In this document: positions 2,559-6,526 of the stretch, in pieces
Layout: each line of letters begins with the position of its first letter
Numbering within the stretch: position 1 is the stretch's first letter
NCBI GenBank assembly: GCA_963833575.1
Contig: CAWHXY010000004.1
Coordinates: 832,001-896,000 of the forward strand
Direction: 5' to 3'
From: Candidatus Bathyarchaeota archaeon
GTDB taxonomy: Archaea; Thermoproteota; Bathyarchaeia; Bathyarchaeales; Bathycorpusculaceae
DNA: 64,000 nucleotides
Notes under the pieces: model-generated
Databases searched by the model: none
Told to the model about the DNA's origin: nothing
The model's input: only the letters and a program-made list of their open reading frames with translations
Program-made: the position numbers and the translations under genes

Positions 2559-3603
2559 CGTTATCTATGATAGAATCGACTTTCTTTGTCTTTATCTTCC
2601 GCCATAAACCTTGACTCACAAGAATAATTAGTGGATAACAAACAATCCAGATAATCGCATATATGGGGCCGTAGTAGTAATGGAATGTTTGCACTTGGGC
2701 CGAGTCTATGCCATATTCTGTACCAATTGTAAAGATTGTGACTATTCGCAAGACGTTTATGAAGTAAGTAACCCCTGCTCCGAAGGCGAAGTATCCCACC
2801 TTAGCTTTCCAAGAGATTGGCATCCGCTGCAAAAACAGCAAAGTAACAGCCGTGAAAATTAGAAGACTTTCAATGCCTGCACAAGGCCAAGCTATCGCAA
2901 ATTTAGCTGTTCCTAATGATCCTGTTACTTGCAAGGTTGGCATGCCATTTTCTGTTCCAGTCAAAACGGCGTATCCCATTAAGCCCAGAACAAAAGCTGC
3001 AAGGGTGGCAGTTGTTGGAACTAATAGTTGAAATGGAGTAAATTGGCCATAAGGAAATATATTATCAATGGCATAAATTACCCCGACTAAACAGACAAAT
3101 AACGCAGGTAATGCAAAACCAGTCAAACCCTTTTTTCCAAAAAATAAGAAAGTGATTAAAAGGCAGAGAACTGAGAAAACAAGGTACTCCATCGCAATCG
3201 GCATGGACAAGAAGAAGGTAATCCCGATTTGTTTGGATGCATTTGCAATCGTCCAGTTTAGACCAAAATAATACTCCGAAATTACATACAACGTTGGAAG
3301 CAACAAGGCAACGGCGACTGCGATAAGTCCTGCCTTGTTTTGTTTGTTAATTTTCAGCTGAATATTTTCCCAGCTGAGAATGAACTCTAATGCTATTAAC
3401 CAAATAAAGAACAATTCGAAGGTTCTGCCCTTCCACATTAATTGAAACGAAAACTGGGAACTTGGTCCAAGGTATGGATCAGGCAGATTTAGCCAATACA
3501 GCAAAGCCAGCGGAACAACGAACGCAAATAACGGAAGCATTTTTATGAAGAATGCTGAGTGACTTTTGATTTTCATAAAAAGTTGCGATGTCAATGCATT
3601 CAT
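2521..3603 (-). CDS. Archaeosortase/exosortase-family membrane transpeptidase
   Basis: Multi-TM protein with the Cys/Arg/His triad motifs WPCAG, NVLRI and FHYYYG. Confidence 0.85.
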   Translation of the reverse strand: MNALTSQLFMKIKSHSAFFIKMLPLFAFVVPLALLYWLNLPDPYLGPSSQFSFQLMWKGRTFELFFIWLIALEFILSWENIQLKINKQNKAGLIAVAVALLLPTLYVISEYYFGLNWTIANASKQIGITFFLSMPIAMEYLVFSVLCLLITFLFFGKKGLTGFALPALFVCLVGVIYAIDNIFPYGQFTPFQLLVPTTATLAAFVLGLMGYAVLTGTENGMPTLQVTGSLGTAKFAIAWPCAGIESLLIFTAVTLLFLQRMPISWKAKVGYFAFGAGVTYFINVLRIVTIFTIGTEYGIDSAQVQTFHYYYGPIYAIIWIVCYPLIILVSQGLWRKIKTKKVDSIIDNAMKPQSTQLNPV

Positions 3604-3831
3604 ACCTGCAGACTAGATATGATGTAACATTACTTTCAGTTTAAAAAAGGCTATGGCTTTTTGTCAAATAACGGGTTACTGAGAGCATCCACCAGAATTA
3701 TGATGGATAAATAAGCTTTGTAGATTCGATGGACGGTAGTTCAATGGGTGAATGCCTCGAGTTTTTATCTCATAAGTGAAAAAGTATAAGAATGCGTATG
3801 TTTCTTCTATGCAAAGCTGGTCGTGAAGAAC

Positions 3832-4107
3832 GTGAACGTTCCCAAAGAAGTTAAAACTTACTGTCCAAAATGTAAAGCTCATCAGATTCACAGTGTAACC
3901 CTTTACAAGCCTGGGAAGCGCAGAGCGTTAGCTCACGGTGAGCGTGCCCATGCTAGAGAAAAAGAGGGTTACGGCGGACAAAAATATGCACTTCAAAGAG
4001 AATTTGCTAAAACAACTAAGAAACAAACCTTGCGCCTTAAGTGCAAAGTCTGCAATTTCATGAGGCACAAGGATGGTATTCGACTAAGAAAACTAGTTAT
4101 ACAATAA
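3832..4107 (+). CDS. rpl44e: 50S ribosomal protein L44e
   Basis: PKEVKTYCPKC..H..H, GYGGQK, KTTKK..LRLKC..C. GTG start chosen at 3832. Confidence 0.95.
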   Translation: MNVPKEVKTYCPKCKAHQIHSVTLYKPGKRRALAHGERAHAREKEGYGGQKYALQREFAKTTKKQTLRLKCKVCNFMRHKDGIRLRKLVIQ

Positions 4108-4121
4108 TGGAGAAAACTGTT

Positions 4122-4319
4122 ATGTCTGAATGGAGTAAACTTATTCCGAAACCACGAAGCGTCTTCCTTAGAGTTAAATGTCCAAAATGTGGTAACGAAC
4201 AATTGGTCTTCAGCAATGCTGTTAACAAAATTAACTGCAACGTTTGTGGGGAAACCTTAGCCGAACCTTCTGGTGGAAGGGCAAAAATCAAAGGCGACGT
4301 ACAAGCAGTTCTTGAATAA
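4122..4319 (+). CDS. rps27e: 30S ribosomal protein S27e
   Basis: IPKPRS.FLRVKCPKCGNEQ...CNVCG..LAEPSGGRA. Alternative ATG at 4107. Confidence 0.95.
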   Translation: MSEWSKLIPKPRSVFLRVKCPKCGNEQLVFSNAVNKINCNVCGETLAEPSGGRAKIKGDVQAVLE

Positions 4320-4335
4320 GGGATGAAGTAACTTA

Positions 4336-4500
4336 ATGGCTGAGCGTAAGCCCGAGTGGCGAGAAGCCGGCAACTTAACAATAACCAGTATGAAAACATT
4401 CACTGACTTCGGCGCTTATAGTGAACTTGACGAAAATAATAAATACATTTTAGTCGCCAACAAAGCATGTGGGCAAGACATTTTCAGAAGGGAAGATTAA
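4336..4500 (+). pseudogene. Internally deleted remnant of translation initiation factor aIF2 alpha subunit (54 aa)
   Basis: Manual translation MAERKPEWREAGNLTITSMKTFTDFGAYSELDENNKYILVANKACGQDIFRRED. The N-terminus matches the aIF2-alpha S1-domain start (PE.G.LV..T....DYGAY..LDEY) and the end resembles its C-terminus. It occupies the conserved rps27e-aIF2a-nop10 slot. Confidence 0.8.
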
Positions 4501-4668
4501 ATGGTATGGCAACTGCGCAAATGCGTAAACTGCGAAAAATACACTCTGCAGAAGGATAAATGCCCTTTCTGTGGAGGACCAGTTAGGATTCCACATCCGC
4601 CGAAATTTTCTCCTGATGACAAATATCTAAAATATCGAATGGCTATGAAAAAGAGTTGTACTGAATGA
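4501..4668 (+). CDS. nop10: H/ACA RNP protein Nop10
   Basis: Not in ORF track. Manual translation MVWQLRKCVNCEKYTLQKDKCPFCGGPVRIPHPPKFSPDDKYLKYR... Confidence 0.93.
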   Translation: MVWQLRKCVNCEKYTLQKDKCPFCGGPVRIPHPPKFSPDDKYLKYRMAMKKSCTE

Positions 4669-5438
4669 AAGAAACCTACATTAAAGAATTCATGGAAATT
4701 GAGCCAAACAATCCTGTTCTTATCGAGGGTCTCCCAGGTTTAGGCCTTGTGGGCAAAATTGCACTTCGTTACCTGATTAAACAATTAAAGGCCAAGAAAA
4801 TTGCTTATCTTTACTCGCCTCATTTTCCTTACTTCGTCTTAGTTAACAAAAAGGGCAACGTTCGTCTATTAAGAGGGGCATTTTACTTTTACAAAAATCC
4901 AACTGGATCAAACGATATAATCTTGTTCACCGGAGATAGCCAATCACAAACAATTGAAGGCCAATACGAAATTGCTGATCGCATCCTTGATTTCTCAGAA
5001 AAATACGGCGTAAAAACCATAGCGACCATTGGAGGGTACCGAATGGAGCCACAAGAAAAACCCAAAGTTTTCATCGCTGCAACATCACAGGAGGTATTGG
5101 ACAAAGCTTTGCAAGCAGGCGCAACCTTGAGCACTTCAGGAAGCCCCATTGTTGGCACAGCAGGATTAATTCTTGGTCTAGCCAAATTCAAAAAAATAAG
5201 CGCTCTTTGCCTCCTTGGTGAAACACGAGGTTATCTGCCTGATCCTCTTGCGGCAAAAAGCATTTTAGAAGTCTTAAAATCTACTTTTAACTTCGACTTA
5301 GACTTAACCGGATTAAACGAAGAAATTACTCGGGCAGAAACAATGGTGGCTCGTCTACAGCAAATTGAAGAAAAGCGTGCTTTGCAAGCAGAAGAAACAC
5401 GTAAAGAAGATGATAAGAAAACCACTTACATTTCTTAA
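4665..5438 (+). CDS. Proteasome assembly chaperone (PAC2) family protein
   Basis: LIEGLPGLGLVGKIA, IVGTAGL, CLLGET.GYLPDP; conserved position after nop10. Confidence 0.9.
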   Translation: MKETYIKEFMEIEPNNPVLIEGLPGLGLVGKIALRYLIKQLKAKKIAYLYSPHFPYFVLVNKKGNVRLLRGAFYFYKNPTGSNDIILFTGDSQSQTIEGQYEIADRILDFSEKYGVKTIATIGGYRMEPQEKPKVFIAATSQEVLDKALQAGATLSTSGSPIVGTAGLILGLAKFKKISALCLLGETRGYLPDPLAAKSILEVLKSTFNFDLDLTGLNEEITRAETMVARLQQIEEKRALQAEETRKEDDKKTTYIS

Positions 5439-6526
5439 GTGGCAAAGCTTTTCTTTATTATTTCGAGAATTTTTTGGGCTGCAGTACCATCTCCGAAGGG
5501 TGAAGTAAACGGCAAACTCGTTTTCTTTTCTACAGCTTCTTCTATAGCTACTAAAATGTCTTTCTTATCAGTTCCAACGACTTTGGCGAATCCTGCTTCC
5601 ACTGCCTCTATTCTTTCAGTTGACAAACGCATTACTATAACTGGTTTCCTTATGTTTGGAGCGGTTGCTTCCTCTTGGATACCGCCTGAATCGGTGATTA
5701 ATAGTTTACAGTTTTTCAACAAGACCAAAAAATCCAAATATCCTTGGGGTGGAAGTATTAGCAGATTTTTTAGCGCTTCCATTTTCGTTAGTAAGTTGTT
5801 TTGTTGAAGTTGTTTTCGTGTTCTCGGATGCATCGGGTAAACAAAGGGGATGGGTGATTTCGAGAAAATGTAAATCAAAGATTCAAGAAAGGATGGGTCA
5901 TCAACATTTTCTGCTCTGTGCGCAGTTGTTAAGGCGAATGTTTCAAACGGAATTGTTTTCATGATTGATGATTTTTTTTCGGCGATTGTTAAATTTTCAA
6001 TTACGGCGTCAATTGCTGTGTTTCCAGTTAGGTAGATTTTGCCCCAGACATTTTCTTTTATAAGATTTGCTTTTGCTCGTTCGGTAGGTGCAAATAAGTA
6101 CTCAGATATGTGGTCGGTTAAGCGTCGGTTATGTTCTTCAGGCATGCGAAGATCAAAGCTTCTTAAACCAGCTTCTACATGGCCAATAGGTATCGTTTGT
6201 TTATTGGCCGCTAAAGCTGTTGCCAAAACACTATTTGTATCGCCTTCAACCAGAACTATTGAGGGTTTGATCTTTTCCAGCAACTGGTTCATTTTCGCCA
6301 TTATTTCTGCTGTTTGAGATCCTGGGGACGAGGCTTTAATTTTAAAAGAGAAGTCTGGTGGTGGCAATTCGAGGTTTTCGATGAATTGCTGAGACATGTT
6401 GTAATCATAGTGTTGACCGCAGTGGACAAATACTGATTTCATTTTTGTCTTGTTTAAGGCTCTGATTACCGGAGCCATTTTGATTATTTCAGGTCTTGTC
6501 CCTGCAACTACTAGTATTGGGTTCAC
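5435..6526 (-). CDS. wecB: UDP-N-acetylglucosamine 2-epimerase (non-hydrolysing)
   Basis: GTRPEIIK, GQHYD, HVEAGLRS, PEEHNR, TDSGGIQEEA. Confidence 0.95.
   Translation of the reverse strand: MNPILVVAGTRPEIIKMAPVIRALNKTKMKSVFVHCGQHYDYNMSQQFIENLELPPPDFSFKIKASSPGSQTAEIMAKMNQLLEKIKPSIVLVEGDTNSVLATALAANKQTIPIGHVEAGLRSFDLRMPEEHNRRLTDHISEYLFAPTERAKANLIKENVWGKIYLTGNTAIDAVIENLTIAEKKSSIMKTIPFETFALTTAHRAENVDDPSFLESLIYIFSKSPIPFVYPMHPRTRKQLQQNNLLTKMEALKNLLILPPQGYLDFLVLLKNCKLLITDSGGIQEEATAPNIRKPVIVMRLSTERIEAVEAGFAKVVGTDKKDILVAIEEAVEKKTSLPFTSPFGDGTAAQKILEIIKKSFAT

What the first reader, a model, noticed from the sequence alone, without database searches (positions are those of the whole stretch)
4336..4500. 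aIF2-alpha reduced to a 54-aa in-frame remnant inside its conserved operon
Seen: between rps27e and nop10, where a roughly 260-aa aIF2-alpha normally lies, only 165 bp remain. They encode the recognisable N-terminus fused in frame to a C-terminus-like tail, and the stop abuts the nop10 ATG. Conserved residues have drifted (WREAGN for W/LPE.GD/E; DENN for DEY), which argues for decay after an old deletion rather than a fresh mis-assembly. Inference: either natural loss of a core initiation-factor subunit (to my recollection dispensable in Haloferax) or relocation of the gene. The mini-ORF may be kept to preserve translational coupling to nop10.
Basis: partly seen in the sequence, partly recalled or inferred. 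Interest (0 to 1): 0.7.

Follow-up and report, generated by a model that had tools for sequence, protein, structure and literature searches.

The report
In-frame aIF2-alpha scar kept before nop10
The 54-codon ORF is what remains of one of two aIF2-alpha gene copies in a Bathyarchaeia genome; the other copy is intact elsewhere, and related species keep similar scars open, probably so that ribosomes still reach the next gene, nop10.

Summary
Window 4336-4500 is a 54-codon ORF between rps27e and nop10. It consists of aIF2-alpha codons 1-36 joined in frame to the last 18 codons, and its stop abuts the nop10 ATG.

The factor itself is not lost. An intact 263-aa paralogue ("B", S1 + EIF_2_alpha domains) lies about 375 kb away on the same contig, and aIF2 beta and gamma are intact.

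In the genus (Bathyarchaeia, 120 genomes) aIF2-alpha is duplicated:
- 25 genomes have only the operon copy A.
- 29 have A and B.
- 59 have only B.
- 7 incomplete genomes show neither.

All 66 A-less genomes keep an open ORF in the 62-303 bp gap. It ends within 2 nt of the nop10 start in 52.

The scar middles change at the rate of fourfold-degenerate sites, with an omega-like ratio of 0.84. Yet none of 243 substitution events creates a stop, against 10.7 expected. In this genus nop10 mostly starts with TTG or GTG directly after the upstream stop.

Best reading: a gene-loss scar kept as a translational relay. The origin is shown; the relay function is inferred. An independent 14.5-kb contig rules out mis-assembly.

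The parts
3823..4107 (+). rpl44e, first gene of the operon. Its TAA stop overlaps an in-frame ATG at 4107 by one base (TAATG).
   Evidence: Pfam Ribosomal_L44, 83.2 bits; sequence read.
4125..4319 (+). rps27e. It may start at ATG 4125, or at ATG 4107, which overlaps the L44e stop.
   Evidence: Pfam Ribosomal_S27e, 77.5 bits; ORF list.
4320..4335 (+). 16-nt gap between the S27e stop and the scar ORF. It holds a GGGATGA motif that recurs across the genus.
   Evidence: Alignments of spacers and column conservation. Duplex with the 16S 3' end is only -5.2 kcal/mol, which is background level.
4336..4443 (+). Scar ORF, 5' block: homologue of aIF2-alpha codons 1-36, the beginning of the S1 domain only.
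   Evidence: 77 of 108 nt identical to the G003 operon gene. The first 18 nt are conserved among scars, with 0-0.5 events per site.
4444..4500 (+). Scar ORF, 3' block: homologue of the last 18 codons plus stop of aIF2-alpha. The last 21 nt are conserved and abut the nop10 start.
   Evidence: 39 of 57 nt identical; last 21 nt: 0-0.43 events per site; junction conservation.
4501..4668 (+). nop10, the presumed beneficiary of the relay. It starts with ATG here, but with TTG or GTG in most of the genus.
   Evidence: Pfam Nop10p, 83.4 bits; start codons.
4665..5438 (+). PAC2-family gene. Its start overlaps the nop10 stop (ATGA).
   Evidence: Pfam PAC2, 154 bits.

Best explanation
The ORF is the in-frame deletion scar of the ancestral operon copy ('A') of aIF2-alpha. 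It lies in a Bathyarchaeia genus in which the gene was duplicated.

The function of aIF2-alpha is supplied by the paralogue 'B', about 375 kb away. This is inferred from its intact domains and from B being the only copy found in 59 of 120 genomes.

The scar peptide itself is probably meaningless. What appears to be maintained is an open, translated frame that starts at the old aIF2-alpha start and stops at the nop10 start. Terminating ribosomes could then reinitiate on nop10, and onward on PAC2.

Shown: homology of both ends, the paralogue, the duplication, recurrent loss, open frames in all 66 A-less genomes, neutral-rate change without stops, and non-ATG nop10 starts abutting the upstream stop.

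Inferred: that the scar is translated, and that nop10 translation depends on it.
For: Origin:
- Searches show homology of the N- and C-terminal blocks.
- Searches show an intact B with S1 (41.8 bits) and EIF_2_alpha (89.8 bits).
-, a tree of 74 proteins: the A+B clade has support 99, B is monophyletic at 99 and A at 87.
- All 13 full-length outgroup copies lie beside operon genes. For the 12 whose nop10 junction was fetched, nop10 starts with ATG.
- classes the 120 genomes as A only 25; A+B 28, plus 1 with a broken A; B only 58, plus 1 with two non-operon hits; none found 7.
- Loss of A needs at least 5 changes on the B tree (49 rows). It needs 8 on a flank-gene tree (103 genus rows), of which well-supported branches force 4.

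Relay:
- 66 of 66 A-less spacers (62-303 bp) hold an ORF. It covers at least 76% of the spacer in 65.
- The ORF ends at 0 nt from the nop10 start in 46, at +1 in 3, at -1 in 2, at -2 in 1, at -5 in 1, at -12 or -13 in 10 and at +28 in 3.
- In 47 of the 66 loci (11 alignable groups) the scar middle changes at about the fourfold-site rate of S27e+Nop10, for example 0.65 against 0.54 and 0.94 against 0.97.
- The omega-like ratio is 0.84, against 0.14 for Nop10 and 0.20 for S27e by the same method.
- 0 of 243 middle-region substitution events create a stop. Position-permuted events give 10.7 +/- 2.8, and 0 of 5000 permutations were as low.
- The codon-conditioned expectation is 9.7 stops among 289 events.
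- The nop10 start is TTG or GTG in 34 of 36 A-containing loci and 61 of 67 scar loci of the genus. It is ATG in 12 of 12 outgroups.
- All junctions in the window are of the coupling type: TAATG, TAA|ATG and ATGA.
- Literature: reinitiation needs overlap or a very short distance, about 20 nt nearly abolishes it, and the last 15 nt of the upstream gene suffice (PMC10666635, abstract and section 7).
- RNA-library contigs bridge scar to nop10 (4393-4561). In a relative they bridge S27e, a 121-nt scar and nop10.
Against: - G000 itself has an ATG start on nop10, so it may depend on coupling less than its relatives do.
- G000's own clade (3 genomes) has no power: 0.85 stops expected, 0 seen.
- Small indels within scar groups show no excess of multiples of three: about 3 in frame against about 6 frameshifting (read from the alignments). 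Thirteen scars end at -12/-13 or +28.
- Two A+B genomes carry full-length A copies with an out-of-frame middle containing stops: G087 (88% complete) and G089 (85% complete). Either continuous translation from the A start is dispensable at least for a time, or these assemblies carry indel errors.
- One scar (G049) has lost its start codon.
- The region before nop10 pairs only weakly with the 16S 3' end: -5.9 kcal/mol, against a background 25th percentile of -5.5.
- No conserved RNA structure was found.
- There is no direct evidence of translation. RNA-library contigs do not prove transcription, let alone coupling.
- The stop test counts unique variants against group consensus sequences, not events on a tree. 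19 of 66 loci could not be used.
Confidence: 0.6

Rival explanations
1. Same origin (scar of the lost operon paralogue), but the scar is a neutral relic. Only its last ~21 nt (the nop10 initiation region) and its first ~18 nt are constrained as cis-elements. The open frame is incidental and has no role.
For: - There is no 3n bias among small indels within groups, and 13 of 66 scars end off-register.
- Broken full-length A copies exist in G087 and G089.
- G049 lacks a start codon.
- G000's clade alone shows nothing beyond chance.
- nop10 in G000 has its own ATG.
Against: - 0 stop-creating events were seen against 10.7 expected in regions changing at the neutral rate. 0 of 5000 permutations were as low.
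- No scar among 66 ends more than 13 nt before the nop10 start.
- Nearly all distinct deletion architectures keep the old start in frame with the old stop.
- TTG or GTG nop10 starts directly after the upstream stop point to dependence on upstream termination.
Confidence: 0.3
2. The mini-ORF encodes a functional micro-protein, for example a fragment that still binds RNA or another aIF2 subunit.
For: - The ORF is open in all relatives.
- The first 6 and the last ~6 codons are conserved.
Against: - Lengths range from 14 to 103 codons with different junctions.
- The omega-like ratio is 0.84 and the middle changes at the fourfold-site rate.
- Only about half of the S1 domain's first strands remain, and nothing of the EIF_2_alpha domain.
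- There is no Pfam hit.
- The conserved ends coincide with the two translation junctions.
Confidence: 0.05
3. Assembly collapse or chimera in this MAG: the real genome has a full-length gene here.
For: None found. The raw reads of the source sample were not available as such.
Against: - A 14,556-nt contig from another public DNA run covers window 3733-5497 without a gap, with 102 differences.
- Two other species' genomes (G009, G101) have the same architecture at 83-87% peptide identity.
- 63 further genomes have other scars at the same place.
Confidence: 0.01
4. Real natural loss of aIF2-alpha function in this organism.
For: - aIF2-alpha can be deleted in H. volcanii (PMC3828320).
- In four other A-less genomes (G108, G121, G125, G129) the B copy reads with one or two frameshifts.
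Against: - G000 has an intact 263-aa B copy with both domains.
- It is 95% identical to that of G101 and sits on a short branch, so it looks conserved.
- The frameshifted B copies keep 79-92% identity in most pieces (the C-terminal pieces of G108 and G121 are about 59-61%), so they may be assembly indel errors.
Confidence: 0.02

Closest known systems
aIF2-alpha / eIF2-alpha family (Pfam S1 PF00575 + EIF_2_alpha PF07541)
   Same: The scar's first 36 codons and last 18 codons are homologous to the two ends of the family's genes. It sits in the family's conserved place, L44e-S27e-aIF2alpha-Nop10-PAC2.
   Different: 207 internal codons are missing. No Pfam domain is detectable and no fold can be expected. 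It is a remnant, not a member.
Gene pairs translationally coupled by termination-reinitiation in Haloferax volcanii and E. coli (Huber et al. 2019, PMC6728339, listing and start of abstract only; Huber et al. 2023, PMC10666635, abstract and section 7 read)
   Same: Same-strand ORFs whose stop and start overlap or abut. A short 3' part of the upstream ORF is enough. Distances of about 20 nt nearly abolish coupling. This fits the fact that no scar ends more than 13 nt upstream.
   Different: Here the upstream ORF is not a gene with a product of its own but the remnant of a deleted one. The coupling is inferred from evolution, not measured. Huber et al. link coupling to subunits of one complex, whereas aIF2-alpha and Nop10 are not known partners (recalled).
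Redundant initiation-factor genes and the viable aIF2-alpha deletion in H. volcanii (Gaebel et al. 2013, PMC3828320, abstract and passages)
   Same: Initiation-factor subunits can be encoded twice and replace one another (aIF1A and aIF2beta there). One copy can be lost.
   Different: There the alpha subunit is single-copy and its deletion gives a severe growth defect. Here alpha is the duplicated subunit, and one or other copy is missing across species.
In-frame, non-polar deletions used by geneticists to spare downstream genes in operons (recalled, not searched)
   Same: Removing a gene while keeping its first and last codons in frame preserves expression of the next gene.
   Different: Here nature appears to have done it repeatedly: at least 4-8 independent losses, with many secondary deletions.

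Membership tests
aIF2-alpha (functional gene) | S1 RNA-binding domain (PF00575) | tested here: not met
   No Pfam family at E<=10 for the 54-aa ORF. Only codons 1-36 of the roughly 82 that hold the domain in the intact copies remain.
aIF2-alpha (functional gene) | EIF_2_alpha middle/C-terminal domain (PF07541) | tested here: not met
   Deleted (codons 37-243). The only PF07541 hit in the genome is the paralogue at C4:460461-460787.
aIF2-alpha (remnant by descent) | Sequence homology of what is left, and conserved position between rps27e and nop10 | tested here: met
   E 7.4e-9 to 7e-11 against full-length copies. 77 of 108 and 39 of 57 nt identical to the G003 operon gene. Same flanks as 12 intact operon copies and 12 outgroup loci.
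Termination-reinitiation coupled ORF pair | Same-strand ORFs with overlapping or abutting stop and start | tested here: met
   TAA at 4498-4500 is followed by ATG at 4501. The ORF ends within 2 nt of the nop10 start in 52 of 66 scars.
Termination-reinitiation coupled ORF pair | Downstream start poorly suited to independent initiation (non-ATG start, weak Shine-Dalgarno) | tested here: inconclusive
   TTG or GTG in 61 of 67 scar loci and 34 of 36 A-containing loci, but ATG in G000 itself. The duplex with the 16S 3' end is -5.9 kcal/mol, at background level.
Termination-reinitiation coupled ORF pair | Downstream translation falls when upstream translation is stopped early | not testable with these tools
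   Needs a reporter assay or ribosome profiling. The only indirect evidence is the lack of stops: 0 seen against 10.7 expected.
Neutrally decaying pseudogene | Substitution rate and pattern of unconstrained DNA | tested here: met
   For the middle only: it changes at about the fourfold-site rate with an omega-like ratio of 0.84. The first 18 and last 21 nt are conserved.
Neutrally decaying pseudogene | Accumulation of stops and loss of the reading frame | tested here: not met
   No premature stop in 66 of 66 scars. 0 of 243 events create a stop.

The most novel reading that the evidence does not exclude
After a core gene was lost, selection has kept an otherwise meaningless ORF of 14-103 codons open in at least 66 Bathyarchaeia species. 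Its only role would be to carry ribosomes to the TTG- or GVG-type non-ATG start of nop10. That would be a natural, many-times-repeated 'non-polar deletion'. It would show that termination-reinitiation is obligatory for this operon in an uncultured archaeal class, and that gene loss inside coupled operons is channelled into in-frame scars.
Probability: 0.55. Interest if true: 0.6.

Novelty: new variant of a known kind. Interest (0 to 1): 0.45.

Why it matters
The headline reading, that an archaeon lacks aIF2-alpha, is wrong, and automated annotation could make the same mistake in half of this genus.

What is left is a clean natural experiment. A duplicated initiation-factor gene lost its ancestral copy several times, and every loss left an open scar ORF ending at the next gene's start.

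If the relay reading holds, it has three consequences:
- It gives evolutionary evidence for translational coupling in a lineage with no cultures or genetics.
- It explains a class of tiny 'hypothetical' ORFs inside conserved operons.
- It shows a constraint on how genes can be deleted from coupled operons.

It also flags that aIF2-alpha exists as two diverged paralogues in 29 of 120 species. That raises the question of whether the two copies differ in function.

Tried and rejected
- **Pfam on the mini-ORF** gave nothing even at E<=10.
- **Rfam on window 3500-5600**, both strands, at E<=1 gave nothing.
- **Conserved RNA structure** at the scar start and at the scar-nop10 junction: RNAalifold found none.
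- **Shine-Dalgarno pairing** with the genome's own 16S 3' end: all five operon starts fall within background. I dropped the claim that the conserved 3' block is a strong SD.
- **First version of the stop test** (332 events, 14.0 expected, 1 observed). It mis-framed parts of groups G6-G8. I replaced it.
  - In those, frameshifted members (L047, L059, L066), the pair L052/L076 and 14 singleton architectures were left out. That leaves 47 of 66 loci.
  - Only the parts of G6-G8 upstream of the frame change were used.
- **The one 'stop' event on a consensus background** is not a real stop: all six G3 sequences are open. The same artefact gives 5 'stops' in S27e and 1 in Nop10.
- **3n bias of small indels** was looked for in the alignments and not found.
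- **Sequencing runs.** No run held more than 0.24 of the sampled words. Parts of the stretch without cover in X1, X15 and X16 are not evidence of anything.
- **Literature.** Two searches listed no paper on aIF2-alpha paralogues in Bathyarchaeia, or on gene remnants kept for coupling. Only listings were seen, so this is not proof of absence.
- **Closed or unused resources.** Supplementary files were not consulted.
- structure prediction, complex prediction and the large protein searches.

Full report
**What is there**

Window 4336-4500 (+) is an ATG-to-TAA ORF of 54 codons. Its stop (4498-4500) is followed at once by the ATG of nop10.

The neighbours are rpl44e, rps27e, nop10 and a PAC2-family gene, all on the + strand (Pfam). 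Every junction is of the kind seen in translationally coupled genes:
- L44e stop and an in-frame ATG: TAATG.
- Scar stop and nop10 start: abutting.
- nop10 stop and PAC2 start: ATGA.

The mini-ORF has no Pfam match. No Rfam family matches the 2.1 kb around it on either strand.

**It is an aIF2-alpha remnant**

Residues 1-37 match the N-terminus of full-length aIF2-alpha proteins:
- The genome's own copy: 54% identity, E 7.4e-9.
- The copies of relatives: up to 59% identity, E 7e-11.

An alignment with the intact operon gene of relative G003 gives two blocks:
- Gene codons 1-36: 77 of 108 nt identical.
- The last 18 codons plus stop: 39 of 57 nt identical.

That is one in-frame deletion of 621 bp. 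Other references shift the breakpoints by a few codons.

**The factor is not lost**

A Pfam EIF_2_alpha search of the whole assembly (94% complete, 8 contigs) finds one hit, at C4:460461-460787. It lies in a 263-codon ORF with S1 and EIF_2_alpha domains, like the operon genes of relatives.

This ORF sits about 375 kb from the scar on the same contig. aIF2 beta (142-aa frame) and aIF2 gamma (421-aa frame) are present.

**The genus-wide picture**

Titles of close relatives name Bathyarchaeia/Bathyarchaeota, including Bathy-6 and Ca. Bathycorpusculum records.

In 120 genomes of the genus, nop10 was found in 120 and EIF_2_alpha in 113. I classed the EIF_2_alpha hits by adjacency to nop10:

| Class | Genomes |
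|---|---|
| Operon copy A only | 25 |
| A and a second copy B | 28, plus G089 where A reads in two pieces |
| B only | 58, plus G092 with two non-operon hits (G000 is in this class) |
| Neither | 7, all 52-88% complete |

A tree of 12 A, 49 B and 13 outgroup proteins shows the following:
- A+B form one clade against other families of the order (SH-aLRT 99).
- B is monophyletic (99).
- A is monophyletic (87).

All 13 outgroup copies lie beside the operon genes. For the 12 whose nop10 junction was fetched, nop10 starts with ATG.

So aIF2-alpha was duplicated at or near the base of the genus, and one or other copy was later lost. Loss of A needs at least 5 changes on the B tree. On a tree of the flanking genes it needs 8, of which well-supported branches force 4.

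G000 belongs to a well-supported clade of 9 species that all carry scars. Its loss is therefore old.

**The scars**

I fetched the S27e-nop10 gap of all 66 genomes that lack A there. The gap is 62-303 bp, against 798-815 bp in 12 loci with the gene.

Nearly all gaps begin with the old start and first codons (MAERKP-like) and end with the old last codons (FRREK-like).

All 66 hold an ORF, which covers at least 76% of the gap in 65. Its end, measured relative to the nop10 start, falls as follows:

| End position | Scars |
|---|---|
| 0 | 46 |
| +1 | 3 |
| -1 | 2 |
| -2 | 1 |
| -5 | 1 |
| -12 or -13 | 10 |
| +28 | 3 |

No scar stops earlier than -13. One (G049) has lost its start codon.

There are at least two dozen different deletion architectures, from 14 to 103 codons. 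Most keep the old start in frame with the old stop.

**Is the open frame more than history?**

In 11 alignable groups (47 of the 66 loci) three things hold:
- The first 18 nt and the last 21 nt of the scars are conserved.
- The middle changes at about the rate of fourfold-degenerate sites in S27e+Nop10 of the same genomes.
- Replacement and silent changes are near their neutral proportions. The omega-like ratio is 0.84, while the same crude method gives 0.14 for Nop10 and 0.20 for S27e.

Yet stops do not appear:
- The codon-conditioned expectation is 9.7 stop-creating changes among 289 events.
- I also re-dealt the 243 middle-region events to other positions with the same base. That gives 10.7 +/- 2.8 stops, and never 0 in 5000 trials. 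The real sequences have 0.

This is the signature of a frame that must stay open while its peptide does not matter.

**Why nop10?**

In the outgroups the aIF2-alpha stop mostly overlaps an ATG start of nop10 (TAATG in 9 of 12).

In this genus nop10 starts with TTG or GTG directly after the upstream stop. That holds in 34 of 36 loci with A and in 61 of 67 scar loci. The next Met lies near the end of the protein, so TTG must be the start.

Experiments in H. volcanii and E. coli show two things (PMC10666635, abstract and section 7):
- Reinitiation needs overlap or a very short distance and is nearly lost at about 20 nt.
- The last 15 nt of the upstream gene suffice.

This fits scars that may shrink to 14 codons but never stop early.

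**Against the relay reading**

- G000, G009 and three other scar genomes have an ATG on nop10.
- G000's clade alone has no statistical power.
- Small indels within groups show no excess of multiples of three.
- 13 scars end off-register.
- Pairing with the 16S 3' end is at background level.
- No conserved structure was found.
- G087 and G089 carry full-length A copies whose middle is out of frame with stops.
- Four B-only genomes read B with frameshifts.

The last two points may reflect indel errors in lower-quality assemblies. Completeness is 88% and 85% for the two broken A copies, and 64-92% for the four frameshifted B copies. I could not check this.

**Assembly**

A 14,556-nt contig of another public DNA run covers 3733-5497 with no gap and 102 differences.

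Contigs from RNA libraries bridge scar to nop10. In a relative they bridge S27e, a 121-nt scar and nop10. RNA-library contigs do not prove transcription.

**Verdict**

- Loss of the factor is refuted.
- Relocation holds in the sense of duplication followed by loss of the ancestral copy.
- The coupling idea is the best-supported account of why the scar stays open (about 0.6), with neutral relic as the main rival (about 0.3).
- Two literature searches listed nothing on this.

Noticed in passing
window 4501 and the nop10 loci of relatives (L005-L224): The nop10 start codon changed from ATG in 12 of 12 outgroup genomes to TTG or GTG in most of the genus. It reverted to ATG in G000, G009 and three other scar genomes.
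   Followed up: partly
window 4323-4331: A two-codon ORF (ATG AAG TAA) lies within a conserved GGGATGA motif between the S27e stop and the scar start. In other clades this ATG is in frame with the scar and adds four codons, leaving only 3 nt after the S27e stop.
   Followed up: partly
L001 1049-1387 (-) and 2234-2536 (-), beside the intact paralogue: The B copy is flanked by two small ORFs (112 and 100 aa) with no Pfam family. The 112-aa ORF recurs beside B in 26 of 48 other B loci and the 100-aa ORF in 15 of 48. A class I methyltransferase gene lies next to them here.
   Followed up: partly
L229 (G087) and L230 (G089): These are full-length operon copies of aIF2-alpha whose middle part is out of frame and holds stops, while both ends and the total length (262 codons) are kept. 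They are either early pseudogenes or assembly indel errors.
   Followed up: partly
L225-L228 (G121, G108, G129, G125): In four genomes that lack the operon copy, the only other aIF2-alpha copy reads with one or two frameshifts. Identity is 79-92% in most pieces and about 59-61% in the C-terminal pieces of G108 and G121. If real, these species would lack an intact aIF2-alpha.
   Followed up: partly
L051 (G096): nop10 itself reads with an internal TAA in this 80%-complete genome.
   Followed up: no
window 3781-3795: An A/T-rich TATA-like stretch lies about 30-40 nt before the GTG start of rpl44e. That would give the operon a very short leader. This was read by eye and not tested.
   Followed up: no
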